A stretch of 64,000 bases of DNA from Lophium mytilinum (GCA_010093605.1 MU004193.1:62001-126000); one strand, 5' to 3'; positions 16,015-54,759 are shown, counted from the stretch's first letter. Numbers and translations: made by a program. The notes: generated by a model not told the origin, from the sequence alone.

Positions 16015-16836
16015 CTATTCACCGGCGGCATATTTCTGCTCCTTCTGATCTCCAGAAACTTTTTCCAGTCGAGACACTTCAGAAAGCCACTCCTTCGCCA
16101 GCCGAAGAGTGTAATCGGAGTTATCTGACATGTTTTGAGACAGCTTCCTCGCTTCCAGAACTTGATCCTTCGATATAGTCTGCAGCTCGCCGCATTCTTG
16201 GCGAAATCTCCATGACAGGCGATATCCCTGCGACTTGAACATGACTATTTCCGCTTCCTCGAACGACATGGCAGCGTTTTTGAAGCCATTCGATGCCGCT
16301 GCAAAGTATCGAGATGCCTCAATTAGGCTTTTCGACGCTTCCTGATAGGCATCGTGTATCTCCTTGGCGCGAGCAGCTGTCAAGAACGTGTCCTGTCGAT
16401 GGACTTCAGGATAGCTCTTGAAGTCGGTAGGGTAAAAACCCAACGCAATCTCATGCGCTAGTGAACCCTGATCTTTCCTGATCCAGGCTTCGTTGTAGAT
16501 ACTCCTTGCCCAATCGAACGTCCGGGCGGCCTGCAGAGCGGAGATCGGCTGGGCTTGGGCAGTGGGCTTGGGGCTATGGAAGGATGAAGGCATTGCAGAG
16601 CCAGGCGTTGGATTAGACTGCTGCGCAAGACGGCGGTCCAGTTCGGCCCGCTTTGATGCGTCAATCAGTATTTCGTAAGCATTCTGAATCTCCTTGAACT
16701 TCTCCTGCCCAATTTCACGATGAGCAGGATCTGCGATCCTATCCGGATGGTACTCTAGGCATAGCTTGTGGTAGGCCTTCTTGACTGTGCCAAAGTTTGC
16801 GTCGTGCGACACTCCAAGAATCTCGTACGGAGACAT
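16015..16836 (-). CDS. J-domain (DnaJ/Hsp40 class C) protein J1 with uncharacterised helical C-terminal domain
   Basis: PYEILGV...YHKLCLEYHPDR...FKEIQNAYEILID..KRAELD is a canonical J-domain with HPD. The C-terminal domain is shared with four paralogs in the window. Confidence 0.9.
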   Translation of the reverse strand: MSPYEILGVSHDANFGTVKKAYHKLCLEYHPDRIADPAHREIGQEKFKEIQNAYEILIDASKRAELDRRLAQQSNPTPGSAMPSSFHSPKPTAQAQPISALQAARTFDWARSIYNEAWIRKDQGSLAHEIALGFYPTDFKSYPEVHRQDTFLTAARAKEIHDAYQEASKSLIEASRYFAAASNGFKNAAMSFEEAEIVMFKSQGYRLSWRFRQECGELQTISKDQVLEARKLSQNMSDNSDYTLRLAKEWLSEVSRLEKVSGDQKEQKYAAGE

Positions 16837-17343
16837 CTTGACGCCCTTGAAGATGCAGGTCGAGCGTTGATAGTTTCTGAGCGGTTATATAGATGGTGAG
16901 AGCAGCATTGTGAGAGAATGATCATTCTGCAACATTTTTTCTAGATTGTAGAAGATTGATGGAACTCGGTTCATTGTTGGCTCAGAATCGACGGTACATG
17001 AGCTGTCAAAAGCCTACCAGTGGAGATCCGGAGATAGCAACGAGCGGCACGGCGTAGCCAAAGCGCTGCTTACTCGACAAGCTCTTTCACTCGTATTTAT
17101 ATTATCATTGCATCACAGAGAGAACACAGACGGGAGATGTTTGAGTAAGGAGCAAAAGCGTAGTTCTTCATCTTAGTTGTCTAAGATAGTGACTAATTAC
17201 CAGATTTTCTGACAGTTAGGGCCGCTACGCGACGGTGAGAGATACTTGCCAACATTAGAAGGAAGATATGATATTGACAGTTATGATCGCGGGAATTACT
17301 TAAGCATGACCAGAGGATGCAAGCGAGGTCCAGGAGCCGTAAT

Positions 17344-18140
17344 TCATCCAGCTATGATGATTCCCAGTGCTTCCTTCTTGGCTGTACCCTGCTGCAGGAG
17401 CCTGAGGACCATGTGCATCCACCCAGTAGCCAGGTCAGAGAGGCTGAAATGCTCCAATTTTGTTTGCTTGTGAAGCTTCGTGAGCTCTAGCTCTTGCTTG
17501 TGTGATTCTCTGCCCCACTTTGCGCACTCCTCGAGGGTCGTTGCATTTTGTGTAGCTCTTGCGGCATCCGCAAAATAGCGCCTCGAGTTGCTAAACTCAT
17601 AACTTGCCTTACGGAAACTGTCGGACGCTACCCAAACCAAAGCTGATGCCTCGCCGTATGCTTTCTTGGTCTCAATGGCCTTCTTCACTGTCAAACAGGA
17701 GTCCTTGTAGTAATGGATCGGAGAGCTGGGGTAATCCAATGGTCGGAGTTTGATCGCGTCCTGATATTTTTTACGACCCAGGGCGCTTGTAAGACGACCT
17801 TTCGAATACCAATGGCTTCCTAGTTCCAAGCGCTCGTCTACGAAAAACTGGTTGGGGTCGCGACGAAGTTTGTCGCGAGTATTAGGGCTCTGCGGGGCAT
17901 CGGGGCAGATCCACCAGCTTGCCGTGGGAGGCGTCGATCGAGCTCTGCGCGTTTGACCGGATCACTAAGGATCTCCCAAGCGCTCTGTACTTCCTTGAAT
18001 CTCTTTTCTCCTTTCTTTTGAAAAGCAGGATTAGCTATCTTGTCTGGGTGGTGCTTCAAAGCCAGAGCGTGGTATGCTCTGCGGATTACTTGGGGAGTTG
18101 CATCCTGGGGGACTTCCAATACGGTGTAGGGGGTTGACAT
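17344..18140 (-). pseudogene. J-domain paralog J2, frameshifted near 17900
   Basis: J-domain with HHPDK in ORF 17838-18140. The homologous C-terminal domain (PLDYP...YGEAS...LSDLATGW) is in another frame that stays open up to ~17910. No plausible intron was found. Confidence 0.7.
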
Positions 18141-18457
18141 GATGAAACTGTTTGTTGGATCTGTTGGTGGACCCTTGTCGAGGGCCGAAGGGGAGATCTA
18201 TACAGACTAGTTCAGGTAGCTTTGTAAGTGCACGTTTACCACGAAGATCTTCCACATATACGACCTCCTCACCACACCCCCACGGCCGTCAACGTTGTGC
18301 AGCATCGTCTCGTGTTGTGTGCTCACAATGTGCCAGTCTCGAAGAATATAAACCTCCTGCTCATTGAACGTCTGCATTTCTTGAAGAACTTTTCCGGGCA
18401 CAAACCCCCAAGGAAGCCAACCGACACACACAAATACCAAGCTCCCACCCTCTCAAT

Positions 18458-18838
18458 ATGAACTCTTACATCGCGATGAAGAACGCGATACAAGAGATAG
18501 ATAACGGGAAGAACCCGAAGCCCAAGGAAGAGCCTAAGGAAGAGCCCAAGGATGGACCTGCGCAATACGACGAAGTCGTCATACTCGAGGCCGGGGCTAG
18601 GTTCGTCTTACCAGGGGCGAGTCAAGAGACTAGGACCTCTGTCAAGAAAGTCAGGAAGTGGCTTGAGCAAATGGAAACTGATCCCCCTGTAGAATATCAT
18701 CTACCACCACAGGACCGAGTTCCTGCAGAGTATGTTCAACAGCCGGGCGAAAAGCCTCCCCCTACTCCTCAGGTTCCTCCAATCGTTCCACCACCTGTCC
18801 CTCCACACGGTTGGAAGAAGTGGGTCTTTAAAGGCTAA
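18458..18838 (+). CDS. orphan family A, copy 1 (Pro-rich tail)
   Basis: 126-aa ORF with TATAAA at ~18347. Shares ASxETxxSVxKVxxWLxxxExDxPVEY with 19429-19791. Confidence 0.7.
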   Translation: MNSYIAMKNAIQEIDNGKNPKPKEEPKEEPKDGPAQYDEVVILEAGARFVLPGASQETRTSVKKVRKWLEQMETDPPVEYHLPPQDRVPAEYVQQPGEKPPPTPQVPPIVPPPVPPHGWKKWVFKG

Positions 18839-19428
18839 GCTTGATTCATGGTGTGGATGCCTGAACTTGCTGACGTTGCCTCCATCCAGTTGCGGTCGCA
18901 CAACATCTTCAACAACGTGAGTAGTGTAGCAAGACTCCTAACACGAGCATCATAGGATATTATGAGTCAGGCAAGTTGTACCAGGCTCTCATTACTCAAA
19001 TCAAGTCCCTCTTTGCCTAATGCAAACTTTTGACCTGAAAGTGACGGATACCACAATCCTAATTTACGTGCCGTTTCCTGCCTCGTCCAACTTCTCGGGC
19101 GGGAGAAGTTGACCTAGTTGGTGTCGGTGTTGTTTTCCCATATATGGCATGCCATTTCATAGATAGAATTCTCAACACCAAATTCAATATTGAAGCGGAA
19201 CATTGTGTAGTCACATAGGAATTTCAAATATACGAGATTGTAAGTAGGCATTGTTGCTAGACAAAATACTTGGAGTTGAAACATATATCTTGAGGAAGCC
19301 AAGAGTCATGCTAATCTCTCACCCTTCACGTTTCCAGACACAGGAATTTGGAATTCTCAAAAGTCAAAAAGTCCACCTCCAAAGCAATCAACGTGTCTTC
19401 GCGGTAACTTTCGTACTCGACTCATAGT

Positions 19429-19791
19429 ATGGAGCGAAAGAAAGACAATAGTAAGACAGGATCTTACAGTTCTGCTAGCACATACGTACTCCCAGAACAA
19501 ACTGAGCGCTCTATGAATATGTGCAATCTACCCGATGTAAGCTCCAAGCACCAGGACTTTCAGATGTTCCTCGAAGCAAGTCAGCAGCCAGCGGGAGCGC
19601 CACTTAAGCCTAGAGTTAAGCGGGTAGAGGTGCTTATCGATCAAAACGGAGACAGGTATTCCGCCCCTTGGGCTTCGAGGGAGACTATCAAGTCCGTTGA
19701 GAAGGTGAACGGGTGGCTGGCGGAGCTGGAGTTTGATACTCCTGTTGAGTACCTAAATCGCCCGGAAGACGAACGTTCTGAGTCGAAATGA
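19429..19791 (+). CDS. orphan family A, copy 2
   Basis: PWASRETIKSVEKVNGWLAELEFDTPVEY aligns with copy 1 (PGASQETRTSVKKVRKWLEQMETDPPVEY). Confidence 0.65.
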   Translation: MERKKDNSKTGSYSSASTYVLPEQTERSMNMCNLPDVSSKHQDFQMFLEASQQPAGAPLKPRVKRVEVLIDQNGDRYSAPWASRETIKSVEKVNGWLAELEFDTPVEYLNRPEDERSESK

Positions 19792-20397
19792 TACTTGGTT
19801 TTGCTATCTTTAGACGCATCTTGGGAGATACGAACGGTACCTGACACCAATCCCAAGTGACACTGCGATCGAATGAATGCCATGCGCGCAAGCGTAGATA
19901 CGGGGCCGAGACTGCTACGCTGCCGGACTCCCAGCACCCACGAACCACAATCCTTGTTGACTTAGGTAGCGATACCAAAATCACACATTCAACTTTTCCA
20001 ACCAAACATCATTATTGCCTCTTCTTTTTGCACTATGAAAGCTCTTGCACAATGACTGCAAATGTCTTGACATAACCAGTAGCCAGGACGCAGCTAGATT
20101 CACTTGCATGCCGTATGAATGAGAAGGAATGCTTGGGCGATTAAAGCGTGAATGCTAAGTACCCATATCGTTCACCTGCCCTTCTGAATACGGATATATA
20201 AATTAGACTTGCGATCGAGCTCTTTCCTGGATCACCCCACAGCTCCCACGCCAAGCCCACTTCATATCCACAACCACCGCGCTCCCATACCACCAGCCAT
20301 ACCTTCTCAAGGACCAATACTACTTTCCGGGCTACTATATCCCTAAAATTCAACCCTGCAATAATTTCAATACTTTCTCCACCCATTTCAACACAAG

Positions 20398-20922
20398 ATG
20401 TCCCCGACTTCCAGGCTCGAGGCTGCGGGGATGGATGCTCGCCAGTTTCAGAAGATCACCACTGGATTGCCCTATTCTGAAACGACTACGGTCTTGGACG
20501 TTCGAGTGGCAAAGGATTTCCAGGAATCCTTTCTCCAGGCCCAGCGCAAACTTGCTGACGACTGGCAGCTTCTCCAGTGGACGGATATGAAGGACGTCTG
20601 GGACGATCTCTGCAAAGTAGCGCAGCCCAAATGGGACTATTCTTTCGAGATCCTTTCGCACGCGGCGAATGGTCATGCCCAAACAACAGAAGGCCGAATC
20701 AAGAGCAGAATCTTACAACGACAACGATGGCTGGAGCAGAAACCTCGAGGACCACCTCCGAAGCCTTATTTCGGCTCTACAGACCAGGACGACGCAGACT
20801 TAGCAAACTTCTGGTCTGGGAATATGGAGCCCAGGAGGCGTACCCGAGACCTGTTTCCCAGCAAGGAAAGCATGGACAAGGCTAAGGCGAAGGTTTTCCA
20901 ATGGCTCTCCGAGCTTCCGTAG
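20398..20922 (+). CDS. orphan family B, copy 1
   Basis: TATATAAA at ~20195. MKDVWDDLCKVAQPKWDYSFEILS aligns with copy 2. Confidence 0.75.
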   Translation: MSPTSRLEAAGMDARQFQKITTGLPYSETTTVLDVRVAKDFQESFLQAQRKLADDWQLLQWTDMKDVWDDLCKVAQPKWDYSFEILSHAANGHAQTTEGRIKSRILQRQRWLEQKPRGPPPKPYFGSTDQDDADLANFWSGNMEPRRRTRDLFPSKESMDKAKAKVFQWLSELP

Positions 20923-21679
20923 CTGGTTGCCCCCAGAGCTCTTGCACTGAGATTATCTCTCAAAAGGGGGTCACATAGCTTGACGCGAAGGCGTAAGAAG
21001 AGAGGTGGACAGTTTTACTAGATCTATGGAGCATCCAAGTACGTGCGCTAATCACTTCTCATTTCTAGATATTCAGGATGAGGCCTTGGACAGTCTTCTC
21101 ATGCTGCGTTGGCTCGTCGAGTAGTTGTGTTCAAAAGATATCGAGTCTAGGTAGATACACAGGCGCCAGACGAATACACAATATTGAGCGCGTAGATGCT
21201 ATGATAGTCAGCTTTTGCACGCACTTCTGATGTCTCGACAAAGTATCTCAACTACGGACAGCTAAGTTTCTCCTACTTGAACTGTGTGAATAATCATGAT
21301 TGGTTGAAGCCGCTCTAGTCAACAATGCGTCAATTTTGAAAGCTCATCTAGACTGATAAGAGGTAATCAAGGTCAATGGACGATGGCCCAGGAGAAGTCC
21401 ATAGAATGTTTTACAGGTATTGTACACTTCCAGGACTCCTTTTCAGCTTGTGATTCGTTACCAATGTTCCCGATATTGAGCCTTACTTGCAGTGAGTAAG
21501 GCCACCCGATCTGTGTTTATCCACACTGAAACATTGTTGAATAGTTTGAGAGAATGGTGACTGGGATAATGCTTCATAGTGCACTCTAAACGTGCTTTGT
21601 GTTCACACAATGTGTCCCAATAGGTAATATATGGTCAACAATCCCAGTTACCACTCGTTATCAAATCAATCTTCCAGAT

Positions 21680-22270
21680 ATGCCATTCCATACAAGCCAT
21701 AATCCAGAAGACACCATGTCGTTGCTCTCACGCCCCAACACGCCCCCAAACATTCCCATGTTCAGATATCTCGAAGGATGCCGCGCAGCACGCCATCAAA
21801 ACTTGACCGACCAGTGGCTAATGATGTACCAAGATCCAACTATGAGAGATATCTGGCCAGATCTTTGTGCCATAGCACAGCCGAAGTGGGATAGATCTTT
21901 TGAAGAACTCTCGGGATTCATTCACCGACGTCAAATGACATCCAATGATCACATCAAGTACAGGATGCGGCAACTGAATGCATGGCGATCTCAAGAGCCG
22001 CGCACTTCCTTCCCACCGCAACGCATTCTTGGACCCTGGATTTCGCCTGAACAAGATCCGGACTGGGCAGACTTTTGCGCGGGTCCCATGGAGGGCGATC
22101 CAAAAGATATGTACCCAGATATGCAAAGGCAACTTGCGGGCAGAATCGCAGTCCTGAAATGGCAAAAGCAGCTAGAGAAAGACCCACCGGCAGAGTACGT
22201 TGTTGCTCCCAAGGTCGTGAAGCGAGTTCTGAAGCGAGCCAGGGGAGAATCCTCCCATCGTTTGGGCTAG
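21680..22270 (+). CDS. orphan family B, copy 2
   Basis: MRDIWPDLCAIAQPKWDRSFEELS; C-terminal VLKWQKQLEKDPPAEY links it to family A. The start may instead be 21716 (CACCATG). Confidence 0.75.
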   Translation: MPFHTSHNPEDTMSLLSRPNTPPNIPMFRYLEGCRAARHQNLTDQWLMMYQDPTMRDIWPDLCAIAQPKWDRSFEELSGFIHRRQMTSNDHIKYRMRQLNAWRSQEPRTSFPPQRILGPWISPEQDPDWADFCAGPMEGDPKDMYPDMQRQLAGRIAVLKWQKQLEKDPPAEYVVAPKVVKRVLKRARGESSHRLG

Positions 22271-22734
22271 GCTCTTGTACACCCCCTTGATTGAACACTT
22301 GGTAGCTGGTCATACTGACCGCTACCCATGAGACCTGGATACCAAGGATCGAACCTAGGAGATTATGCCTAGTTCGAATACCCTGAGAAATCAATTTTAA
22401 CCCCTACAATAACTTTTCTTCTTCTCCGGCATGTGACTAGTACGTGAATACCGAAAGCAACCTCGATGATCTTTGTTCCTGACATTCTGTTCGCCGGCGT
22501 AAGACCAAATCGCTCCCCTCCAGAATCTCCAGTTTCATTGTCAGGTAACACGACGAGGATTATGTAAGAACAATCGTGTAAGTCTGATGCGTCTACAATG
22601 ATTCATCCGTACCTGTGATTTCCTGATCATGGGTATAACATGCTCCAAACTCACGCGCACAGACAGGAATTTTGCATCATCAAGATTGTAGTACTCGCAC
22701 ACACGAAGCGTTGAAGTGGGTACCTTATTCCACC

Positions 22735-23262
22735 ATGTTCTTCTTCAACCCCACCCAAAACCCCCTGCCCAGCCCCTTGATGCCCCTGCCTAGCACCCTA
22801 ATGTTCGCATCCACCCCCGAAGAACGCGACCAGATCGAGCGCGAGGTAGCCTCAATGGGCACCGAAACGTTGCCAGAGTGGTCCGACATCATTCGCGCGC
22901 GTTATCGACAGCTCTGCCAGGACCTGATGACGCGTGGCACACCTCTGCCTCTGAGTAGAGTAGAGATCTCGAAAGCGTTCCATTGGTGTACCCTCGAAGA
23001 AGCGAAGCAAGAGCCGCGTCTTCGTGCCCGTCTTCGGCAACTGAAAGCTGAGCACGAGAAGGCACACATGCGGGAACAGACGAAAATGATAACCGCACAA
23101 CACCCAGCACAGCCCTCAAAGAAGGCGAAGAAGGGCCGTGAGATGGACAAGCCGTTTTGGGCTACGTACTTGGTCTTGCTAGTCCTCTGTCTTGTCATGC
23201 TTGATCGTGTCTTCGGGTTCAAGCCGTTTGGGAAAATTACTAAGGATGGATTCGAGGTCTAA
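22735..23262 (+). CDS. orphan family C, copy 1 (C-terminal transmembrane anchor)
   Basis: IRARYRQLCQDLMTRGTPLPLSRVEISKAFHWC aligns with copy 2. Hydrophobic FWATYLVLLVLCLVML near the C-terminus. Confidence 0.7.
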   Translation: MFFFNPTQNPLPSPLMPLPSTLMFASTPEERDQIEREVASMGTETLPEWSDIIRARYRQLCQDLMTRGTPLPLSRVEISKAFHWCTLEEAKQEPRLRARLRQLKAEHEKAHMREQTKMITAQHPAQPSKKAKKGREMDKPFWATYLVLLVLCLVMLDRVFGFKPFGKITKDGFEV

Positions 23263-23828
23263 ACTGGATCTTGAATCAATGATTCTGGGGGTGTGGGTGC
23301 AAGTACATTTACTTGTCTCAAGTGTACACGAGAGAGTATAGCCAGTAGCAAACTAAGGTGATCTTGCGCTCCAAATACAAATCTTTGCATATTGCATGTA
23401 CCTTTTTCCTTCTGCGAGTCAGGTGACATGTATTGCGATGGAGAGATGGATGAAGAAACTCTACCTCATCTTTCAAGACCAATTTCCTCGCTCAGTGTCA
23501 GGACTATCATGTACTCATTACGAACCCAAACCCCGAATAGCCATCTCATTTGTTCGTCGCTTGAACCATCGAAACATTGTGCACAGAGACCGCGGCAATA
23601 GCAACCCTACTAAGAGCATTTTGAATATATGTAATGACAGTATCATAACCTCACAATGCCCCTGAACCTCGTCGTGAAAGCGCCCTCTGCACTGTATATA
23701 CTGAGCCGTCTTCCTCCAAGATCAGCCTCATCACACCAGACCAACCCTGCTTCGTCTTTTGACGTTGTTCCCTCAACCCTAACGATATCTCAGGGGTTCC
23801 CCGAATCGACGGTACATACCTTCCCAAA

Positions 23829-24779
23829 ATGTCCCCCCACTTCTCCGTCGGAGCCTTCGTGCGAACTAGTGCGGAGCGCCAATTCATGGAGCTTGAGGTC
23901 GGTGAAGAAGCTGACAGCTGCTTCCCAGCCGAGACCTCCGTACGAACCAGCGAAGAGCGTCAATTCATGGAATTCGAAATCGACGAAGAAGCCCCCACCT
24001 TCTCCCCAGCCGAGAACTCCATGCTAACTAGCGAACAAGGCCAAATCAAGGAGCTCGATGTCGGCGAAGGAGCTTCTAGCTTCCCCCGAGCCGAGACCTC
24101 CATACTAACCAGCAAAGAACGCCAACTCATGGAACTCGAGATCGCCGACGAAGCGATTCGCCACTTCCCCGAACACGGGGATGAGATCAAAGCCCGCTAC
24201 CAATGCCTGCTCCAAATGATGGCCAAAAACGGCTACCCCAAACCCGTCGAACAGCAGGAGATTGCCAATGCGTTCTACTTCTGCCTAATGCAGCTGAAGC
24301 ACAAGCTCGATAACCAAGGTAAGGAAGAGTATACCGACGACGACGACGCCATCTACAGTTCAGAGGAAGATTATTCTTACTGGGCGGACGATGAGAGCGG
24401 GTCGGATACCCTCGTTGACGGCTCCGAAAGCGACGAGACCGATCCAGAGACACTATTTGGCGATTCCGATAGCGATGGGATGAAGAAACGCAGGGACGGT
24501 CAGCGTCCCACCCCCCGGCATCGTCCGCCTTGGGGTTACTACCCGCGCTACCCGCAAAAGCGCGATGGCCAGCAGCAGACGCAGGCGGTGCAGCCCAGGC
24601 CCTTGACTCCAAGCGAGGAGGCGCTTCGTGAGCGCGCAGTCATTGTGACTTACTGGGCGTGCCTTATCATAGCGGTGCTGCTTTTTTCAAAGCTTTTCGA
24701 GATAGTCTCCGGGGCTCGTGGGACCTTTAAGATGTCAGCGAGCATTATGTTCGTCTTGTTTCTCTTCGGTCCCCGTTAG
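23829..24779 (+). CDS. orphan family C, copy 2 (4x27-aa repeats, acidic tract, C-terminal TM segments)
   Basis: IKARYQCLLQMMAKNGYPKPVEQQEIANAFYFC; hydrophobic VIVTYWACLIIAVLLF and ASIMFVLFLF. Confidence 0.75.
   Translation: MSPHFSVGAFVRTSAERQFMELEVGEEADSCFPAETSVRTSEERQFMEFEIDEEAPTFSPAENSMLTSEQGQIKELDVGEGASSFPRAETSILTSKERQLMELEIADEAIRHFPEHGDEIKARYQCLLQMMAKNGYPKPVEQQEIANAFYFCLMQLKHKLDNQGKEEYTDDDDAIYSSEEDYSYWADDESGSDTLVDGSESDETDPETLFGDSDSDGMKKRRDGQRPTPRHRPPWGYYPRYPQKRDGQQQTQAVQPRPLTPSEEALRERAVIVTYWACLIIAVLLFSKLFEIVSGARGTFKMSASIMFVLFLFGPR
23859..24180 (+). repeat. coding tandem repeat, 4 x 81 bp
   Basis: VRTSAERQFMELEV.. / VRTSEERQFMEFEI.. / MLTSEQGQIKELDV.. / ILTSKERQLMELEI.. with a 27-aa period. 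Confidence 0.9.
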
Positions 24780-25783
24780 CATGGGAAGCTGGGCTCCTAT
24801 GTTTCATTGGGGTGATCCGAGCTAGTGTGGGAGAAGCGTAATTATGCGTGTTTAACATGTTCGTTTTGACTAGCGCACAGAATTTCTTAAGCTTGCCTGG
24901 TTCGGATTTGCCTTCTTGTCTGTCATGAGATCCCATAACTTTTCGACAGTTCCCTCGCTGGTGATTGTGACTTGAGCGCCCGTGCTGTGAAAATACTGTG
25001 TTTCCATAGATCTGCTCTCGGTGCACGTAGATATCCTGGTGGTAGCGTGGATCGCAACTCAGGCCCACCAAGCTTCATTTTCCAACACGGGCAGGAAATG
25101 TAAGGACCTGCATAGGGCTGGAAGGCATGCACACCTCGCCTCATATCTAGCGAGAAAGACATTGTTGAGTGTATCAAGGCTTCGCTGAAGTCGAAACTGA
25201 CATTGACGCGATTACCAATGCGACTAGCGCTGTAGTCACGTGGCGCAAGCCTACAAATACAAGTACTCCATATCAAACAATTGCGAATGCGGTCGCTGTT
25301 CGTCTACATCAAGGTGAAGTCTGAGCTCTCCGAGGCTAGAAGATGCATGCTGAAGAAGTCCACTGCGACGTCAAGAGGCAATGAAGAGGGACGAGGCCGT
25401 CGCCTCTGGCTCGGTGTTGTGCCATGACTTGAAGATCGATGAAAATGATTTATGAAATGTAAGATCATTAACACTGCAACATGATGCAAGCACGGAGAAA
25501 AGATGGTTCTTCTTACGACGTGGGGGGCTTGAAATGGGAATGGTGATATTTGATGGTATAGAACAAAAATAGTCCTTTGCGACAGCTTACCCACGGATAG
25601 TCCCTAAATCAACTCCTCGCTACCTAAACACTTTTACATGAATGATCAACCCGGACTAAAACGTCGGTCTAGTCACAGGCGATCGTGTGGTTCCGCATAA
25701 CATAAGGTCGCATTCCGTCTCTTCCTCAGACTATTGACTCCCGACCCGATAAAATCCCTGATGATGCAATATTCGTACTTGCT

Positions 25784-26693
25784 TTATGCCAGCTCTGTTC
25801 GTTCCACGTTGGGCATCTCATAGGCCTGTTGCGGCGGCGCCGGTTGCGGCGTATGTTGATACGCCGCCTTCGGATCTTGTAACGGATACACCCCGCCACC
25901 CTGGTGGGCCACGCCCGCAACGTTCCCGCCCTGCCCGCCGTACTGCCATTGCGCGAGCTGCTTTTTGTGCTTGCGATGTTGGAATAACAGTCCTGCTAAG
26001 CTTGCCACGAGCAAGATACCCAACGGGATGCCGACTCCCGCTCCGATTGCCGCGTCGTGCCCGCCTGAAGTTGACTTCACAGTCACAGTGGCTGCGGCCG
26101 GTGCGGACGTCGCAGAGGTTGGCGATGCGGTAGATTGGGTCCCGGACGCGGTGCTAGCGGATGCTACCTGCTCGAGAGGACCCCAGTTGGCGATTACTTT
26201 GCCTACGTTGAAGGTGGCGTCCTCGCCGTAGCATTCGTTGGCGGTGGCGTTGAAGCTCAGGCAGCAGAACTGGCTGTCTTGGCTAGGATTGAGGATGCCG
26301 ACGATGGGACAGGCTGAATTCGTGTATGCTGTAGTGAAGTGTGTTAGCAGTGTCGTCTCAGATGGCTGCAATGCTTGAGATTGTACTTTTGCGACATGGT
26401 CCAGGGCAAGATGAGGCTCCCCAGCTCTTATCTGTGCAAGAGTCGCGGTAAAGATATCCTGGGTTCGTCTGTCCTTGAGCAAAGCAGAGTCCATTGTCCA
26501 AGCAGACCTCGTTGATAGGATCGCAACAGTGGCTGTGGCCATCGGCGGTGTCGGTGTAGCAGGGCCTGTGGTTGGTCCGAGGGTCTCCATTCGGCACGTA
26601 GCAGCTGGTTGGCACCTTGATGGCCTCGACGGGGACCAGAGTCGCGAGCAGAAGAACGGCTCCCGCCATGGGTAGCGCAAATCGGGTAATCAT
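25784..26693 (-). CDS. Mid2/Wsc-like type I membrane protein (signal peptide, Cys-rich ectodomain, S/T stalk, one TM)
   Basis: Exons 26693-26387 and 26328-25784 join in frame across a GTACAA..CTAAC..CAG intron. Motifs CYVPNG..CC..CLDNGLC..YRDSCTDKSW..CP..C and TM AAIGAGVGIPLGILLVASLAGLLF followed by RKHKK. Confidence 0.85.
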
Positions 26694-31844: not shown

Positions 31845-32112
31845 TGTGAAGTATTTACAAGTGTCTGTTGTTTGATGAATACCTAGAGAAATGAGCCAAG
31901 ACAGGTTGCCACAGTTGATACTTCCAAGTTTATTTGCCGTCGCGATGACGCAATGTCGGAGTTTCGGAGCAACGACTTCCGCATCTTACCGCGAACTTCG
32001 TGCCACAGACGTGGCTAAAGACATATCAATTTCTGTGTGAAGCACACCTCTATCAATAGTCATGTCGTAGATAACGATACAGTAGCGGCGAGGACCTCTG
32101 GGCTGACTCGCA

Positions 32113-46371: not shown

Positions 46372-47054
46372 GCGCTCACGCTCGGGAAGGATCCTGATAT
46401 AAAGGCTTCACACGATATCGGCGTTACGCACCAAATCTGAACTCGTTTGCATCTCACACAAAAGGGTATTCCTAGTCACAAGACCTCTTGACAATTGTAC
46501 CCAAAATCACGTTGTTAGAATTGACACAAGTTTGTTCTTTCATATCCACCTGGGGTCTAACTGCGATAAACTTGAAATGGCTTAAGATAGAACAAGCACT
46601 TCTAAGATAAACCATTACAGCGATGTATAAGACTACCAGCCAGATCCTCTCCAGACGGCGGGGCTTTTCTCTGTCCAGATCCTATCATTCCACGAGAAGG
46701 TTATTAGCTGTACCGAGGAGACCTGGGCCGGTTTAGCCAGGTCCCATGATACGAGATGCAAGTGAATACGTCGAAGCTCTCGCATTGCACTGGTACAACC
46801 TCTTTGCTCGTTGTGCCGTAACAGGAATCTATTTGGACAAGTATATGCCTTCACAATGCTGAAAATCTACCTTTCCGCCTCACCAACTTACTTGGCAGTC
46901 TTCAATCTCGGTCCTTAAATACCGGTCGAGGTTCACGTATTCCATGATCCTGCACAGCTTCCAGTTCTCCGATCAAAAGCACCGCAACTGCATCCGAATC
47001 AGTCGCTCCGCCTTCCGTACTCAGAGCTTCTCTTGCCCAGCTTCCCGTGTCTCC

Positions 47055-48329: not shown

Positions 48330-49181
48330 ATGTCCGACCCATATTCCATTCTCGGCGTTGCACAGGATGCAGACTACGACACTATCAAGAAGGCCCACCA
48401 TGGGCTCTGCATGGAATTTTACAGCAACGCGCGGAACCCTGCCCTCCGTGTGGTAGCCCATGATAAGTTCAAGCGGGTACAGGAGGCTTGGAAGGTAGTT
48501 TCTAATACCTATACACGTGCCGAACTCGATCAATCTTTACGGCCTCCTGAGAAGATGGACGCGGCTTCAAAGACCGAACACCCGTACAATCTTCGTTCTG
48601 TTGCGAAAGCTACTCTCAGCTTCAATGCTGGGCTCGCTCCCAACGTTCAAACTGCCCAGACCATTGGCCCTGCTCCATCGGCTGCTCAGAAGGCCCCTGA
48701 AAACTGGGAGATTGCTAAAAAGGCACGCGAAGAAGCCTGCACTAAGCTTCACACCGGGATCAAACAGTACGAGGAGGCTACAGACCTCATTCCGACGGAC
48801 TATCCAGGTCACCCTGACATCCACCGCTCCAAGCCTTCGGCCGAGCGTGCCAAGGCTGTTTCGCAGGCTTACAGTAAGGCCTCGAAACTGGCTACGGCTG
48901 CATACACGGACATCCGTCTGGCGAAGTCTGGACTTGGAGGAGCTCTGGAGCTTTTAGAGCAGGCAAAGGATGGGATGCTCTCAGGGCTAATCTCAGCATC
49001 TCATCTCAACGAGTGTAAGGAGATGATCATTCACCTCCGAATTCACGATACTGAGGCTACGGAGTACATGGCGATGAGCAATGCTGACTCTAGGAAGTTC
49101 CACGTGCTCGCAATGGCGTGGCTTGCTGAGGCGGATGTTCTCGAGAATGGAGGGCGGGACGATGGCGAGGATGAGTTGTAG
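48330..49181 (+). CDS. J-family paralog J4 (degenerate J-domain lacking HPD)
   Basis: MSDPYSILGVAQDADYDTIKKAHHGLCMEFYSNA...KFKRVQEAWKVVS...RAELD; then IPTDYPGHPD...FHVLAMAW. TATATAAA at ~48179. Confidence 0.85.
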   Translation: MSDPYSILGVAQDADYDTIKKAHHGLCMEFYSNARNPALRVVAHDKFKRVQEAWKVVSNTYTRAELDQSLRPPEKMDAASKTEHPYNLRSVAKATLSFNAGLAPNVQTAQTIGPAPSAAQKAPENWEIAKKAREEACTKLHTGIKQYEEATDLIPTDYPGHPDIHRSKPSAERAKAVSQAYSKASKLATAAYTDIRLAKSGLGGALELLEQAKDGMLSGLISASHLNECKEMIIHLRIHDTEATEYMAMSNADSRKFHVLAMAWLAEADVLENGGRDDGEDEL

Positions 49182-50063
49182 GTTCACGGATTGAACCTCG
49201 CGTCTAATGGATTTCTTCTAGCTGGACAAGACCCATAAATGGGTTTGATGCTAAGCCTCGCGTTGCTGTAACTGGCGTAGGCGCTCTTGAAATTTAGGTT
49301 GCACTTACGATTTGGCTGCGTTCTGTTCCGGATCACTAGCTTACAATGTTAGAGCTCGACAAGAGAGGCCCACCTTTGACATTGGATAAACGACCCCCCT
49401 GATATTGGAATAGTATAGCTCTGCTGATTATGAGAAATACTGGTAGCCAGTCTAACTACTATAATGTATCTGACGACACATGTTCTCTTGTACCCACTTC
49501 GCCTCTTCACCTGCATTATATCAAAAGGGACTTTGCTTCTCTACGTTTACACACTCACTGTGCACCCTTTAGCGGTTCTTGTTATAACCCCATCACAAAT
49601 GCACACTCTTTGTGCGTTCCAATCTTGGACTTGCCCAACTGATTTCCCGTGCTGGAGATGTTACACTGGGGCTTGTGGAAGTAGCAAGCGCCCAGTTCTT
49701 GGCCTTGGAGACTGGATCAAATGCCCAATGAAGTCACGTGACCGTGTTAGAAATCATGGTAGTAATTTCGAGCTCGCTCAAATTCTAAACGTCCTGATAA
49801 GTAGGAGTAGATAGCAAACGGTTCAATATACTTCTTTGTCCAGATAAGAGGGAAACAGACGTGTTTTATAAAGAGGTTCTTAATAAGTATAGCCCTTCAC
49901 CTAATTTCTCTACGCTAAGCTAATTTCAGATCCGCACTTCCTTTTCTAGCTCGTCTTGGCACACTATCTGCAGCTCCTATAGCTACCTGGTCACATTCGT
50001 TCTCTGTTGCCATCGTAGTCACGCCTCTTGCAACTTCTACAGAGAATACACTCGCTCGTCAAT

Positions 50064-50660
50064 ATGACGAACCCGTCCATCCTATCAAAACCTCTCCAAC
50101 ACACTCCCCATGAGGCCATCGAGAGCCCTCCCCACCCCAAACCAACCAACTCATCCGCTCCGCCTTCCCCACAAGCCGCCCTCCAAACCATGCAAAAAGC
50201 CGCCACAACCTACGCCACCGCCAGCCATCTCAACAACCTCGCCTTCCAGCACCTCCACAACGCGGACGCCCTCCTCCCCACCGACTACCCCGACCACCCC
50301 GACCTCCTCGAACCTAACGAGCTCCCCACACCTACCCGCGCGCTAGAGATCTCAGAGGCCTACCGCATCGCATCACGGTTCGCCACGAACGCGTCGGGGC
50401 GTTTTCGTATGGCGAAGGAGAGGTTTGAGGCGGCGAATATGCTGTTTGAAGAGGCGAGGGGGATGATAGTGGCTGCGGTTGCGGGGGTGGAGCTGGAGGA
50501 GGTGGAGGGTGTGGTTGAGGGGATGAGGATGCGGGGGGAGCCGGCAGGGGATCATGCCGGGACTACGAATGAGAGGGCGAGGGAGTGGCATGTTTTGGGG
50601 GTTGCGTGGTATGCGGAGGCTGTGGTGCGGGGGGCTGAGGAGAGGGGGGGCGGGTCCTGA
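50064..50660 (+). CDS. J-family paralog J5 (C-terminal domain only)
   Basis: LPTDYPDHPD...PTPTRALEISEAYRIAS...WHVLGVAW. Confidence 0.8.
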   Translation: MTNPSILSKPLQHTPHEAIESPPHPKPTNSSAPPSPQAALQTMQKAATTYATASHLNNLAFQHLHNADALLPTDYPDHPDLLEPNELPTPTRALEISEAYRIASRFATNASGRFRMAKERFEAANMLFEEARGMIVAAVAGVELEEVEGVVEGMRMRGEPAGDHAGTTNERAREWHVLGVAWYAEAVVRGAEERGGGS

Positions 50661-51464: not shown

Positions 51465-51749
51465 CTAATGCTCTTGGTAATTCACCTTCTCTCGACAAGG
51501 GCGAAGCCGTGGCTTCCAGATATTCTCGTCTGGGATATCCTCTGGTAGCACCTTCCGAAGCCTAGCCGGAGGTTTGAACTCGACAAGGCCATCCTCACTG
51601 TCCCCCTGAATCCGAGCACGGATTGTACGAGCACGGCGTCGAGGACGACGTCGAGGACGACGTCGAGGCACCGGTGTTCCAGGCAGTCGAAGACTGCTTG
51701 GCCGTGGAGTGATGCGGGGTCGAGACACTGGCGTGACGATACGGGACAT
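51465..51749 (-). CDS. orphan family D, copy 1: small Arg/Pro-rich basic protein (94 aa)
   Basis: PRRRPRRRPRRRAR. C-terminus LPEDIPDENIWKPRLRPCREKVNYQEH aligns with copy 2. TATATAA at ~51900-51906 on the minus strand. Confidence 0.7.
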   Translation of the reverse strand: MSRIVTPVSRPRITPRPSSLRLPGTPVPRRRPRRRPRRRARTIRARIQGDSEDGLVEFKPPARLRKVLPEDIPDENIWKPRLRPCREKVNYQEH

Positions 51750-52304
51750 GATTTGTCTGTAGAGTGGTTGGAGGTGCTGCTCTGAGGGTATCTTCGACAC
51801 CTGTGGTTCCAAGAATTGAACTACCAGCTTTTTGGGTTTTCTGGAACTTTGGGTATCAAGGATGATGTGGTGGAGTTGGAAAATCGCGCGAATAGAGAGT
51901 TATATACTCTTTAAGATAAGTTATGTAAGGGTACGAAGTCTACGATGAATATAGAATGTGAGTTGTGAGTATACAATGGGGGTGGATAATTCAAGAATAC
52001 GTAGTGACATAATGCAAGGGATACTAAGTTGCTTTCTTATAAATCGGTAGGATAGTACATACAGAGTTCTGCTCATGCAAGACGTGCACATCAAAAGCTT
52101 TAGTAACAAAAGAAGTATGAAATTGGGGGAAATATATCAATTGAGTGAGTCAAGGCACGCATCAAGCGGCCAAAGCAAATTCTAACAAGGTAATGGATCG
52201 CGAAACGAGAGAACTCCACCCATTTGCACAACCAAATTCAAGGAAATTGACTTACCGTGAGCTCATGATCTCGTCATGACCGCGCGAGTGTGGATGCTCT
52301 CAAC

Positions 52305-52931
52305 CTACCAATTCTCGCGGTAGTTGACCCGTCGCGTACGGGTTCGAAGGGTAGGTTTCCAGACATCTTCTTCTGGAACATCCTCTTCGAGCATCTCCTC
52401 CAGCTCGACCGAAGGCTCGAAATCGGCGAAGTCATCTTCGCTTTCTTCCACGTCCACGAAGCCTCCGTCTTCGGAGTACTTCGCGTTCGCTTCCGGGTCA
52501 TCTTCATCGTACCGGCTGTCGTCGGTATCGTAGCCCAGATCATCGGCGTTGTTGTGTTCGATTTGGTCTAGAAGACCATCGACCTCTCCAAGGTCGGCAT
52601 CTGGGTTGGAGTCATCATCGTCCATCTCATCTAGGATGAACAGTGCATGACCATCGTCTTGCTCCTCTGACTCAGTAGCCATAGTACTATCATTGTCACT
52701 ATAGCTTTCGCCAGAGGTTTCAGAGCCGCTGCTGCTGCTACCGCTGGTGCTGTTACTCACAGCATCCATGATCTGGCCCGTACAGGCCTCTTTCGCCACC
52801 TGATCTATCCAGGCATAGATCCTAGAGAATCGGCGTCGATGGTCCACCTTGCGAGGGGTGTGTCGTATGATTCCTCGGCGTGATATGCTGAGGGATGACG
52901 AGGAAGCCTTGGTGATGCCGTGTCGAACCAT
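52305..52931 (-). CDS. orphan family D, copy 2: basic N-terminus, long acidic tract
   Basis: RRGIIRHTPRK N-terminus, D/E-rich middle, C-terminus LEEDVPEEDVWKPTLRTRTRRVNYRENW. Confidence 0.75.
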   Translation of the reverse strand: MVRHGITKASSSSLSISRRGIIRHTPRKVDHRRRFSRIYAWIDQVAKEACTGQIMDAVSNSTSGSSSSGSETSGESYSDNDSTMATESEEQDDGHALFILDEMDDDDSNPDADLGEVDGLLDQIEHNNADDLGYDTDDSRYDEDDPEANAKYSEDGGFVDVEESEDDFADFEPSVELEEMLEEDVPEEDVWKPTLRTRTRRVNYRENW

Positions 52932-53384
52932 TTTGGGAGGCTGATAAGCTTGAATGTTCCGAAGTGGGACTATCTTTTGCAAACTGGTACTGTTAAGGCA
53001 ACAGTATGTGTTGAAAGTTTGGAACTGGTGAGGAGCGGAAGCGATGCGAATCAAAGAGAGTTAAATACTGATTAAGACGAGGCATGTACGGGTACAGTGA
53101 CTATACAATGGGCGAATTGGATATACAATGTGGCTCTCATGGGAAACGGAGTGAGTCTCGTAAGTGTATAATGACCTTAAGATAGTCGATCTGAAGATAC
53201 AACATAGATTCAACCTAGGAAACTAGAGGAAATGTCGACAAGGAGTGTTGAAATTATATTCGAAAGTTTGAGGGACACGAAAGATTTTCGAATTGCAAAC
53301 AGGAAGCAAAGACGTACAGACTGGAAGAGGATACCGATTTTGGGAGAGCCAAGACAAGCATTGCGCGGCCGACTCGTTGGTTGA

Positions 53385-53813
53385 GAACAGCTGAGGTATC
53401 CAAGATCATCGACTTTACGATGTTGTAGCATATTCGAGAGGTCATCAACTCCCCCCCCTGATCCGGGTCTGTATCTTCGTCTTCGTCGTCTGTTTCGTCG
53501 AGGAGCTCCGGCGCGTGAAGAACCCAACCCAAAACTCAGATTTGACGAAAGTTGTCGAGCTGGGTGGCTCGTTCATCGCCGCTGTCGCTGCCGCCGCTAT
53601 CATCGGATGAGTCGGTCAACCGAATAGCGTTACGGGCGGCGGAGGCTTCATCGTGCTTCAATGAGCCCTATGCACCAGCATTTCAGTATCTTCACGCTCT
53701 AGCTTGTCTGTGATCGATGCGACGGCCTCTTTATTGCTAGCGAGTTTGCGACGTGGAGACATGATTGATGTCTTGATGATACCGCGGCGAACATCTCGAG
53801 ATTGGGCCGTCAT
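53385..53813 (-). pseudogene. orphan family D, copy 3 (frameshifted, truncated)
   Basis: VRRGIIKTS..PRRK, then in other frames HAPELLDETDDEDEDTDPDQG and VDDLSNMLQHRKVDDLGY, matching copy 2 (HALFILDEMDDDDSNPDADLGEVDGLLDQIEHNNADDLGY). Confidence 0.7.
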
Positions 53814-54759
53814 TCTCGGGTGTTCGAAGTCTCGGAAAGCGCTCTGTGGGTGCAGTTTCGGACCTGAAGTTTTCCACGGGCTCGAACTTGTGGCTGTCCG
53901 TAGGTTCAATATTCTGCTTGCAAGGAAACGAGTAGAGCGACTAAAGGCAAGCTGAGTTCTTACTCTGAAAACGTAGCAAATTGACTGCACAGTGACGATT
54001 GAACTTAAACAACGCACGCTGAGGCTGGCAAACGAGGCCTCCGAGTCATGGCCACCGCAACGGAATCTCACAATGTTGAAACGTAAAGTCAGAATCTCTC
54101 ATGGGGTATTCATTGCTCTTGATATAGGCTATATCTCTAGCTTGTCTCAGACACCCTTTTGTCACTTGCTCGCCTTTCTTTCACGCTCAAAGGCGCACAT
54201 CGAACATCCATACTCGCGCTCTGGTAGAGACAGACTGGCTTCCTCCTCCTTGACAAACCGCGCTCCTTTGAGATCGTGAAAGGATGAAAGTCTTTGCGCG
54301 AACAAACGCTGAGATGTTGGATCGTATTAGCTCCGCCAGTTCATAAGAGGGTATGTGTTTACATATCTCAAGGCAGCAGATAGCCAAGACGTAGGTCGTC
54401 CTGCTATTTCGGATTCCCCGGATCAGAACGGTACCATCCATCCTCCCCCACCCTGAGATCTCAGCAGAGGTTCCCAGTAAACGGCTGTTTTTCGACAGCG
54501 TCTTCATATTCGCAATCACTTTCTTCAAACTCGCTGTCACCTATAGTCCACTTCTCCATATTCGCAATCACTTTCTTCCTCTCAATCAACTTCTCCGCAT
54601 CCGTTCTTCAGGTGTTGGGACAAGTCGTCCCTAGATAGGAAGGGGGTCAAGCAAATACAACATGTTCTTCCGCACTTGAGCTCTAGGTGTCGGAACAAGT
54701 CGTCTTTAGACTAGAAGATCGCCCAGCAAACACGACAGGTCCATTTACAGTTGTTCCTG

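What the first reader, a model, noticed from the sequence alone, without database searches (positions are those of the whole stretch)
16015..54075. Split cluster of ~14 intronless orphan genes sharing an HMG-box-type ACAATG promoter motif: candidate undescribed sexual-stage regulon
Seen: two blocks (16.0-24.8 kb and 47.0-53.8 kb) consist solely of short, essentially intronless genes in paralog sets (J1-J5, A1/A2, B1/B2, C1/C2, D1-D3). ACAATG/CATTGT occurs upstream of almost all of them: 16906, 16972, 18325, 19201, 19249, 20049, 21322, 21532, 21607, 22536, 22595, 23575, 23653, 46853, 49343, 51973, 53105, 53125, 54070. That is 13 hits in ~4 kb of intergenic DNA in the left block, against ~1 per 2 kb expected for a double-stranded 6-mer. 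By eye I found only ~3 in ~6 kb of intergenic DNA beside the conventional genes. In three promoters the motif sits ~14-17 bp upstream of a TATA-like box. Known: SOX/MATA-HMG factors (MAT1-2-1, Ste11-like) bind (A/T)CAA(A/T)G cores and control ascomycete sexual development. Inference: unrelated protein families were brought under one HMG-box factor, as a gamete-, meiosis- or ascospore-specific gene cluster.
Basis: partly seen in the sequence, partly recalled or inferred. Interest (0 to 1): 0.85.

Follow-up and report, generated by a model that had tools for sequence, protein, structure and literature searches.

The report
Fungal orphan cluster sharing promoter palindrome
Fourteen small, fast-evolving genes in a wood-dwelling fungus sit in two blocks, and most carry the same short DNA signal in front of them, the kind read by sex-determining HMG-box proteins, so they are probably switched on together, perhaps during mating or fruiting, although the expression and the regulator are untested.

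Summary
All 19 sites are where stated. ACAATG is the top 6-mer of 2,080 in the cluster promoters: 18 seen, 2.8-3.6 expected, corrected p 2e-6. It lies within 400 nt of 12 of 14 cluster genes and 1 of 11 other genes. New here: the sites are half of a degenerate inverted repeat, CATTGT-N6-ACAATG (52 of 108 matches against 27.9 expected, corrected p 2e-4; the 27 other sites show nothing). The fungus is Lophium mytilinum. J- and B-family relatives occur only in Mytilinidion resinicola, at accessions 2 and 6 apart on a same-length contig, so the cluster predates the genus split and may be less split there. ACAATG is the SRY contact sequence and occurs beside S. pombe Ste11 boxes; the Ste11/FMF1 word ACAAAG is not enriched. 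Best reading: a co-regulated battery read by a dimeric HMG-box factor of the MAT1-2-1/PaHMG8 type, probably in sexual development (0.45). Co-regulation is likely (about 0.85). Factor and stage are inferred, not shown.

The parts
16015..16836 (-). J1: 273 aa, J domain with intact HPD plus a predicted three-helix bundle
   Evidence: Pfam DnaJ E 9e-21; model pLDDT 83; HPD at 30
17344..18140 (-). J2: J domain (HPD intact) plus bundle; needs a 77-nt intron at 17838-17914 with a weak donor, or is frameshifted
   Evidence: public model P0007 = KAF2492546.1; DNA contigs X1/X2 agree with the window, but may be its source
18458..18838 (+). A1: 126 aa, no database entry or relative found; shares the VxxWLxxxExDxPxEY module with A2 and B
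19429..19791 (+). A2: 120 aa, paralog of A1
   Evidence: tblastn E 6e-8
20398..20922 (+). B1: 174 aa, paralog of B2
   Evidence: tblastn E 1e-16; annotated singleton
21680..22270 (+). B2: 196 aa (184 from the annotated start); 67% identical ortholog in Mytilinidion resinicola
22735..23262 (+). C1: 175 aa, C-terminal hydrophobic segment (tail-anchor-like)
   Evidence: hydropathy 2.06 at 144; paralog of C2, E 6e-9
23829..24779 (+). C2: 316 aa, N-terminal internal repeats, acidic middle, C-terminal hydrophobic segment
47055..47642 (+). J3: 195 aa, bundle only, no J domain; 56% identical to M. resinicola P0008
48330..49181 (+). J4: 283 aa, J domain without HPD plus bundle; no ACAATG within 800 nt
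   Evidence: Pfam DnaJ E 9e-13
50064..50660 (+). J5: 198 aa, bundle only; nearest ACAATG 721 nt upstream
51465..51749 (-). D1: 94 aa, 23% arginine, C-terminal WKPxLR...VNYxE motif shared with D2
52305..52931 (-). D2: 208 aa, basic N-terminus, long acidic tract, same C-terminal motif
53330..53813 (-). D3: frameshifted relic related to D2 (ends approximate)
   Evidence: DNA alignment score 166 against shuffle max 147
16906..16923 (-). Element upstream of J1 (-75): ACAATG plus inverted half-site 3/6, 14 nt before TATATA
16972..16989 (-). Element upstream of J1 (-141), half-site 4/6
18313..18330 (+). Element in the divergent J2/A1 promoter, half-site 4/6, 15 nt before ATATAA
19201..19218 (-). Element upstream of A2 (-228), half-site 4/6
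19249..19266 (-). Element upstream of A2 (-180), half-site 4/6
20037..20054 (+). Element upstream of B1 (-349), half-site 2/6
21310..21327 (+). Distal ACAATG upstream of B2 (-358), half-site 1/6
21532..21549 (-). CATTGT upstream of B2 (-148), half-site 0/6
21595..21612 (+). Element upstream of B2 (-73), half-site 5/6, 14 nt before ATATAT
22536..22553 (-). Element upstream of C1 (-199), half-site 3/6
22583..22600 (+). Element upstream of C1 (-140), half-site 2/6
23575..23592 (-). Element upstream of C2 (-254), half-site 3/6
23641..23658 (+). Element upstream of C2 (-176), half-site 3/6; its ATG also opens a 123-codon frame overlapping C2 out of frame
46841..46858 (+). Element upstream of J3 (-202), half-site 2/6
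49343..49348 (+). ACAATG 721 nt upstream of J5; probably background
51961..51978 (+). Element upstream of D1 (-229), half-site 4/6; lies in DNA homologous to the D2 promoter
53093..53130 (+). Two elements upstream of D2 (-179, -199), half-sites 3/6 and 2/6
54058..54075 (+). Element upstream of D3, half-site 3/6

Best explanation
The two blocks are one old, Mytilinidiaceae-restricted gene battery, grown by local duplication and split in Lophium by about 21 kb of ordinary genes. Its promoters are read by one sequence-specific HMG-box factor of the MAT1-2-1 / Mat1-Mc / PaHMG8-Rox1 type. The factor binds ACAATG in the minor groove; a second HMG box (a homodimer or a partner) takes the degenerate inverted half-site 6 nt away. 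The bent DNA, 70-360 nt before the start codon and often just before the TATA box, switches the genes on together in mating or fruit-body development. The products look like a cell-type remodelling kit. J1 and J2 (HPD intact) would bring Hsp70 to clients held by their three-helix bundle; J3, J5 (no J domain) and J4 (HPD lost) would hold the same clients without Hsp70; C1 and C2 are membrane-anchored; D1 and D2 are basic/acidic, probably nuclear. Shown: enrichment, position, inverted second half-site, paralogy, relatives in a second genus, domain anatomy. Inferred: co-regulation (about 0.85), an HMG-box reader (about 0.75 given that), a sexual stage (about 0.7 given that), and every protein role.
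For: Enrichment 18 against 2.8-3.6, best of 2,080 words; 0 of 500 matched random sets reach it with a non-periodic word. 12 of 14 genes against 1 of 11, Fisher p 2e-4. Sites are upstream only: 2 in 3,535 bp of 3' flank and 3 in 8,368 bp of coding DNA. Exact word: none of 18 single-change variants is comparably raised, the highest being ACATTG, 8 against 3.6. Promoters are not alignable except D1/D2 (z 10; next best 4.2, of 90 pairs), and the signal survives dropping D1 and D3 (16 against 3.2). T-N3-Y-N-H-ACAATG occurs 13 times in the window, 12 of them in cluster promoters (pattern drawn from these sites). SRY contacts exactly CATTGT/ACAATG (PMC11458547). ACAATG lies upstream of the Ste11 box in 3 of 12 rows of the S. 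pombe M-specific promoter table (PMC1693924 Table 3). PaHMG8, in a clade next to MAT1-2-1, is needed for female fertility (PMC3730723). Podospora sexual-stage genes are enriched in orphans (10.1101/2024.12.09.627484). Relatives in M. resinicola are KAF2807345, 347 and 351, each with a longest contig of 1,325,604 nt.
Against: Nothing here ties the genes to a stage or a factor. J4 and J5 lack the site, and the right block alone is weak (43 of 1,000 shuffles; half-site p 0.013 uncorrected). The second half-site is degenerate (0-5 of 6 matches, driven by T at -7 in 14 of 18), so it could be the extended flank of one protein or the site of a non-HMG partner. Flanks differ from Fusarium MAT1-2-1 (ATTGTT(TAA)): only 4 of 18 sites have the A. 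The S. pombe M-box/TR-box pairing is not found. Rox1 and Rfg1 control hypoxic genes and filamentation, and the Fusarium PaHMG8 ortholog knockout has no phenotype. In Neurospora, clustered lineage-specific genes were mostly not co-expressed and MAT1-2-1 sites were not enriched upstream of them (PMC10684091). No protein has a sexual-function homolog. The background is one 64-kb window (11 control genes), since no genome was held. Synteny rests on accession order for 3 proteins; A, C and D relatives were not found (A) or not searched by sequence (C, D).
Confidence: 0.45

Rival explanations
1. The element is a real shared binding site, but the programme is not sexual (low oxygen, stress, conidiation, dormancy), or the reader is not an HMG-box protein but another dimeric factor recognising TGT-N6-ACA.
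For: All the enrichment and palindrome statistics fit any dimeric factor. Rox1 and Rfg1, in the same HMG clade as PaHMG8, have non-sexual roles (PMC3730723). J-domain proteins suit a stress programme (established knowledge). Flanks match no fungal mating-factor motif I read.
Against: The invariant core equals the SRY contact hexamer, and most fungal MATA_HMG proteins act in sex. Recalled rival words were rare in 4,800 bp of promoter: Ndt80-type CRCAAA 3, MAT1-1-1-type CTATTGA 0, TR-box TCTTTGT 2; AbaA-type CATTCY gave 8, not tested against a null.
Confidence: 0.33
2. The motif is an inherited relic: the genes were multiplied or assembled behind copies of one ancestral promoter, and the hexamer is a leftover or a core-promoter element with no coordinated biological output.
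For: Paralogs sit in tandem, A and B share a module, D1/D2 promoters are homologous across their sites, and D3 and possibly J2 are decayed yet keep a site. Earlier notes list several other orphan paralog rows in this genome (unchecked).
Against: Only 1 of 90 promoter pairs is clearly alignable, while the proteins are 25-45% identical, so neutral DNA should have lost a perfect hexamer. Orientation and distance vary (9 sense, 9 antisense; -73 to -358), and J, A/B, C and D show no mutual protein homology.
Confidence: 0.14
3. Chance and selection: a striking word picked after the fact from one of many windows, helped by the fungal start-codon context (CACAATG) and AT-rich promoters.
For: The word was chosen by eye from a very large scan. 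The Prx1 start at 31845 is itself TCACAATG. TATATA reaches the same p in 24 of 500 random sets.
Against: The correction covers all 2,080 words. Half of the site-gene pairs are antisense, 17 of the 19 listed ATGs open frames of 45 codons or fewer, and the sense sites lie upstream of a TATA-like box. The half-site signal was found afterwards and is absent from the 27 control sites.
Confidence: 0.08

Closest known systems
S. pombe M-cell-specific regulon (Mat1-Mc M-box plus Ste11 TR-box)
   Same: An HMG-type ACAATG within about 350 nt of the start codon, used as half of a two-part element (PMC1693924 Table 3 and passages; the table's underlining is not visible, so reading ACAATG as the M-box is partly recalled).
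   Different: There the partner is a direct ACAAAG box 14-26 bp downstream and the genes are dispersed, conserved mating genes. Here the partner is an inverted ACAATG-like half-site 6 nt upstream, ACAAAG is not enriched, and the genes are clustered and lineage-restricted.
Podospora PaHMG5 / Neurospora and Fusarium FMF1 (Ste11-type) regulon
   Same: An HMG-box core A(A/T)CAA(A/T)G enriched in promoters of sexual-development genes (PMC3730723; PMC11708053).
   Different: The site is (A/G)ACAAAGAA / TCTTTGTY, not ACAATG, and is not described as an inverted pair in the passages read; targets are dispersed.
Fusarium graminearum MAT1-2-1 binding site (ATTGTT)
   Same: Shares ATTGT/ACAAT; a filamentous-ascomycete mating-type HMG box (PMC4559316).
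   Different: The invariant base here is the G of ACAATG; the ATTGTT flank is present in 4 of 18 sites.
SRY/SOX sites, including paired SoxE palindromes
   Same: Identical contact hexamer CATTGT/ACAATG (PMC11458547); paired inverted sites are known for SoxE dimers (recalled).
   Different: SoxE pairs are, as I recall, ACAATG-N3-5-CATTGT; the main signal here has the opposite order with 6 nt. The SoxE-like arrangement (3 nt, 3' side) gave 41 of 108, not significant after correction. SOX-TCF proteins are described as essentially animal.
Neurospora clusters of lineage-specific genes next to HET-domain genes
   Same: Clustered orphan genes beside a HET-domain gene (27790-30147 here), some responsive to mating type (PMC10684091).
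   Different: There co-expression within clusters was uncommon and no MAT1-2-1 site enrichment was found; here a shared element is clear.
HscB/Jac1-type class C J-proteins (J domain plus helical bundle)
   Same: J domain followed by a client-binding helical bundle (architecture recalled; HscB appears among fold hits over the J domain only).
   Different: No sequence link for the bundle; its fold hits are generic three-helix bundles, including MIT domains at Z 8.0-9.8.

Membership tests
HMG-box (MATA/SOX-type) regulon | (A/T)CAA(A/T)G core enriched in promoters over matched background | tested here: met
   18 against 2.8-3.6; best of 2,080 words; 12 of 14 against 1 of 11 genes; window-only background
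HMG-box (MATA/SOX-type) regulon | Direct binding by an HMG-box protein | not testable with these tools
   Needs EMSA, DAP-seq or ChIP; no genome was held to list the HMG genes
HMG-box (MATA/SOX-type) regulon | Co-expression and dependence on the factor | not testable with these tools
   No staged or mutant RNA data were available; see Tried and rejected
HMG-box (MATA/SOX-type) regulon | Element conserved in orthologous promoters | not testable with these tools
   M. resinicola proteins were found but not their DNA
Ste11/PaHMG5/FMF1 regulon | TR-box (A/G)ACAAAGAA enriched | tested here: not met
   ACAAAG 4 against 3.4 expected; TCTTTGT 2 in 4,800 bp
S. pombe M-box/TR-box composite | ACAAAG box at a fixed distance downstream of ACAATG | tested here: not met
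   Spacers 0-20 on the 3' side: best 39 of 108 at 15 nt, p 0.012 uncorrected, control sites 34; spacers over 20 not tested
Fusarium-type MAT1-2-1 site | ATTGTT core (A before ACAAT) | tested here: inconclusive
   4 of 18 sites; a Dothideomycete MAT1-2-1 may differ
Sexual-stage gene cluster | Expression limited to mating, fruiting or ascospore stages; fertility phenotype | not testable with these tools
   No data
J-domain (Hsp40) co-chaperones | J domain with HPD motif | tested here: met
   J1 and J2: Pfam DnaJ E about 1e-20 with HPD. J4 has the domain without HPD; J3 and J5 have no J domain
MIT domain | Three-helix MIT fold and sequence signature in the J-family C-terminal domain | tested here: inconclusive
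   VIA Z 9.2 (spastin MIT, rmsd 2.0, 89 aligned), 8.6, 8.0, 8.0, and Atg1 9.8, among many unrelated bundles; Pfam MIT E 0.027 for J3 only, 15 bits against cut-off 30
Orphan (lineage-specific) genes | No homolog outside the lineage | tested here: met
   J bundle: 7 true hits among 1.84 billion representatives, all Lophium or Mytilinidion (J1 itself is not in the collection); B2: one relative; A: none. C got only an Atlas search and D only Pfam

The most novel reading that the evidence does not exclude
A physically clustered, mating-type-controlled developmental 'operon' of a filamentous ascomycete. MAT1-2-1, as a homodimer or with a second HMG partner, reads an undescribed CATTGT-N6-ACAATG palindrome and turns on four unrelated, family-restricted protein types in one sexual cell type (spermatium, ascogenous hypha or ascus): Hsp70-recruiting J proteins with J-less decoys, tail-anchored membrane proteins, and protamine-like or histone-chaperone-like nuclear proteins. 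Their fast turnover would reflect gamete recognition or meiotic conflict.
Probability: 0.2. Interest if true: 0.8.

Novelty: new variant of a known kind. Interest (0 to 1): 0.55.

Why it matters
Direct targets and DNA sites of mating-type and other HMG-box factors in filamentous ascomycetes are known for a few models, and what clustered orphan genes do is an open question; in Neurospora no shared site was found upstream of them. Here a defined 18-nt element marks a set of orphans as one programme. It gives a probe for EMSA or DAP-seq, a pattern to scan the genome and relatives for the rest of the regulon, and a hint that a fungal HMG box binds as an inverted pair. Limits: the organism is not a genetic model, and the sexual link is an inference from motif identity.

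Tried and rejected
Whole-genome motif test: no genome held, so every background is this window.

Expression: no RNA holder listed for 16000-25800. One run guessed as RNA (X3, stage unknown) was laid on 15600-35599 with two DNA runs. Its contigs match the window letter for letter, skip five introns, and cover the Mid2-like gene, HET, Prx1 and the histidine kinase; none was laid on 15600-24937, where the eight left-block genes lie. Contigs drop rare transcripts, so I use this neither for nor against.

DNA of relatives: two scans of metagenome contigs found nothing; the first J alignment was too diverged to search with. Promoter conservation is therefore untested.

Kozak confound (ACA-ATG as a start): rejected for most sites; it explains the Prx1 hit that inflated the first control count from 1 to 3 of 11. 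One cluster site (23653) opens a 123-codon overlapping frame and one (54070) a 68-codon frame on the opposite strand.

RIP as a source: RIP signs are confined to 1-9 kb, and RIP removes CpA/TpG rather than making them.

Mcm1-like boxes within 30 nt of the sites: none with my pattern. A third half-site at 17 nt (47 of 108, corrected p 0.0125) is weaker and not significant in either block alone; noted, not relied on.

A-to-I stop correction: 8 of 13 intact genes end in TAG and the B1 read-through loosely resembles the B2 tail, but other read-throughs show nothing; the one paper listed was not read. Dropped.

Protein function: J4 100-283 has no relative among 1,091 candidates of 155-496 aa; Atlas feature searches for the J4 bundle and C1 were blank; the B2 model is unusable (pLDDT 43); PDB sequence search of the bundle hit only designed repeats and weak matches; Foldseek on PDB and viral libraries returned J domains. 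Two weak profile hits (P0010, P0011) were dropped as repeat artefacts. C and B profiles are unrelated. No absence of a fold is claimed.

Extension to 54.2-61.8 kb: decayed tandem duplicates, motif at background; excluded.

Literature: searches found no paper on an ACAATG or CATTGT-N6-ACAATG element in filamentous fungi; the library lacks most subscription papers. Kjaerulff 1997 and two other papers I tried by id were not held. My recollection that Candida Mata2 binds CATTGTC could not be confirmed and is not used. Supplements were not read; those of PMC4559316 (S2 Text, S8 Fig) and PMC11708053 (Table S4) may bear on the flank comparison.

Full report
Setting. The window is fungal, with a RIP-type AT-rich block at 1-9 kb. 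The public model of J2 is named DnaJ-domain protein of Lophium mytilinum, a Mytilinidiales ascomycete (order recalled). No genome was held, so all backgrounds come from the window. Two DNA runs match 15600-35599 without a difference, but may be the source of the assembly.

Genes. J1-J5 share a C-terminal domain at 21-33% identity to J4. J1, J2 and J4 add a DnaJ domain; HPD is intact in J1 and J2 and lost in J4. A1/A2, B1/B2, C1/C2 and D1/D2 pair by tblastn at E 1e-8 to 1e-17. A and B share a 24-column C-terminal module (HHalign probability 89%, E 2.4e-6), so there are four unrelated groups, not five. J2 needs a 77-nt intron with a weak donor or is frameshifted. D3 is a relic of D2. Five of the first ten proteins looked up are annotated singletons, B2 is annotated from a later start, and A1, A2 and D1 were not found. 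Between the blocks lie a Mid2-like gene (name from its anatomy, no Pfam hit), a HET gene, a peroxiredoxin-like gene (name recalled from the sequence), a hybrid histidine kinase, a nitroreductase and a sugar transporter.

Is the motif more than chance? Yes. All 19 positions are right. In 5,079 bp of 400-nt promoters there are 18 sites, against 12 in 22,694 bp of other non-coding DNA. ACAATG ranks first of 2,080 words, with Bonferroni p 2e-6, and no other 6-mer survives correction. 2,000 dinucleotide shuffles give a mean of 3.5 and a maximum of 11. Without D1 and D3 the count is 16 against 3.2. Among 500 random sets of other non-coding DNA, 24 matched the p value, all with TATATA, and none with a non-periodic word. 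By gene it is 12 of 14 against 1 of 11 (Fisher p 2e-4); the first count of 3 of 11 fell when the peroxiredoxin start codon, itself an ACAATG, was placed correctly. Against: J4 and J5 have no site, J2 and A1 share one, and the right block alone is marginal (6 against 2.7; 43 of 1,000 shuffles).

Not a start-codon or duplication artefact. Nine of the 18 site-gene pairs listed are antisense. The sense sites lie before a TATA-like box, three of them at 14-15 nt. 17 of the 19 ATGs open frames of at most 45 codons. Only D1/D2 among 90 promoter pairs align clearly, so the hexamer outlasted its surroundings.

The element is larger than six bases. Oriented on ACAATG, the 18 sites have T at -7 in 14, a pyrimidine at -3 in 17 and C at +9 in 12, against 5, 14 and 4 of the 27 other sites in the window. 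The strongest bias was reached by 1 of 2,000 random draws. Sliding four candidate words along both flanks (168 tests) gave one clear peak, CATTGT ending 6 nt before ACAATG: 52 of 108 matches against 27.9, exact p 1e-6, corrected 2e-4; the related CTTTGT gives 50 at the same place, and control sites give 28. Rotating each site's own flank gave an equal peak at any spacer in 3 of 10,000 trials. The best cases are B2 (5 of 6) and J1-distal, A1, both A2 sites and D1 (4 of 6); two B2 sites have 0 and 1. A weaker echo lies 11 nt further out (47 of 108, corrected 0.0125). This is the shape of a site for a dimer with one strong and one weak half. A single protein with an extended footprint is not excluded.

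Which factor? SRY contacts exactly CATTGT/ACAATG (PMC11458547, passages). ACAATG stands upstream of the Ste11 box in 3 of 12 rows of the S. pombe M-specific table (PMC1693924, passages and Table 3). Fusarium MAT1-2-1 prefers ATTGTT (PMC4559316, passages), a flank seen in 4 of 18 sites here. Ste11-type factors use ACAAAGA (PMC3730723, passages; PMC11708053, section 10), which is at background here. The best candidates are therefore MAT1-2-1 itself or the neighbouring PaHMG8/Rox1 clade. PaHMG8 is needed for female fertility in Podospora, but Rox1 and Rfg1 have non-sexual roles and the Fusarium ortholog's knockout has no phenotype. The step from HMG site to sexual stage is thus an inference of about 0.7.

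Conservation. A profile of the J bundle found eight proteins among 1.84 billion: four of this window's models (J1 is not in the collection), plus the one used for J2, two from Mytilinidion resinicola, and two repeat artefacts; by id these are P0001, P0004, P0006, P0007 (window), P0008, P0009 (M. resinicola) and P0010, P0011 (dropped), while the J1 row of the profile has no entry. B2 has one relative, 67% identical, in the same species. The three M. resinicola proteins carry accessions KAF2807345 (J4-like), 347 (J3-like, 56% identical) and 351 (B2-like), each with a longest contig of 1,325,604 nt. If accessions follow gene order (usual, not checked), three genes separate J3-like from B2-like there, against at least eight here, in the same relative order. 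That suggests one cluster, interrupted in Lophium. The promoter DNA could not be fetched.

Proteins. J1 folds as a J domain, a loose linker and three long antiparallel helices (pLDDT 83). The bundle's structural hits are generic, MIT domains among them at Z 8-10, below the level that means anything for helical bundles. The simplest working model is a class C J-protein that delivers a bundle-bound client to Hsp70, with J-less or HPD-less paralogs as competitors or partners (inference). C1 and C2 end in a hydrophobic segment; D1 is 23% arginine and D2 is strongly acidic. A and B have no predictable fold.

Comparison and novelty. HMG-driven sexual regulons and orphan clusters next to HET genes are both known. 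In Neurospora such clusters were seldom co-expressed and showed no MAT1-2-1 site enrichment (PMC10684091, abstract and passages), while Podospora sexual-stage genes are rich in orphans (10.1101/2024.12.09.627484, passages). My searches found no report of this element or this cluster, within a library that lacks most subscription papers. Earlier notes of this scan list other orphan rows in the genome but not this motif. I class it as a new variant of a known kind: it looks and probably works like an HMG-box regulon, fails the Ste11 and M-box/TR-box tests, and cannot be filed as a sexual regulon until expression and binding are measured.

Verdict. Observation confirmed and extended; interpretation partly supported. 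Confidence in the full best explanation 0.45; interest 0.55.

Noticed in passing
window 30180-30414: About 235-bp dispersed repeat with imperfect inverted ends (47 nt, 77%); many diverged copies from other contigs were laid on it. MITE-like, between HET and the peroxiredoxin-like gene.
   Followed up: partly
window 1-9150: AT-rich block (31-36% GC) with RIP indices TpA/ApT 1.7-2.0; a mutated repeat region 7 kb from the left block.
   Followed up: partly
window 20920-21020: B1 ends in TAG, and the 32 codons after it loosely resemble the B2 tail: a recent nonsense change or possible read-through. 8 of 13 intact cluster genes end in TAG.
   Followed up: partly
window 48790-48820 and equivalents in J3, J5: The loop between the first two bundle helices carries a second HPD/HPN-like tripeptide (PTDYPGHPD in J4), with invariant P, D and P across seven proteins.
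   Followed up: no
window 51465-51602 and 52305-52445: D1/D2 end in R...VNYxE, which resembles a short motif I recall from chromatin proteins; D1 is protamine-like in composition.
   Followed up: no
window 54200-61800: Gene-poor stretch with several short tandem duplications (57852-58281, 59068-59819, 61169-61596), TATATA runs and two similar promoter-like segments near 55920 and 56720 (seen by eye); possibly decayed orphans. A TGT-N6-ACA palindrome at 59566 lies beside a CATTGT at 59586.
   Followed up: partly
window 31031-39111: A peroxiredoxin-like gene and a kinase-ATPase-GAF-histidine kinase hybrid are divergent, about 280 bp apart, and lie on one spliced contig of run X3.
   Followed up: no
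window 13469-15049 and 11708-12076: A 526-aa intronless, cysteine- and lysine-rich secreted-looking protein and a small secreted-looking protein, both without Pfam hits, next to the RIP block.
   Followed up: no
window 23840-24169: C2 begins with three to four 81-nt internal repeats; its last repeat aligns with the start of C1's conserved domain.
   Followed up: no
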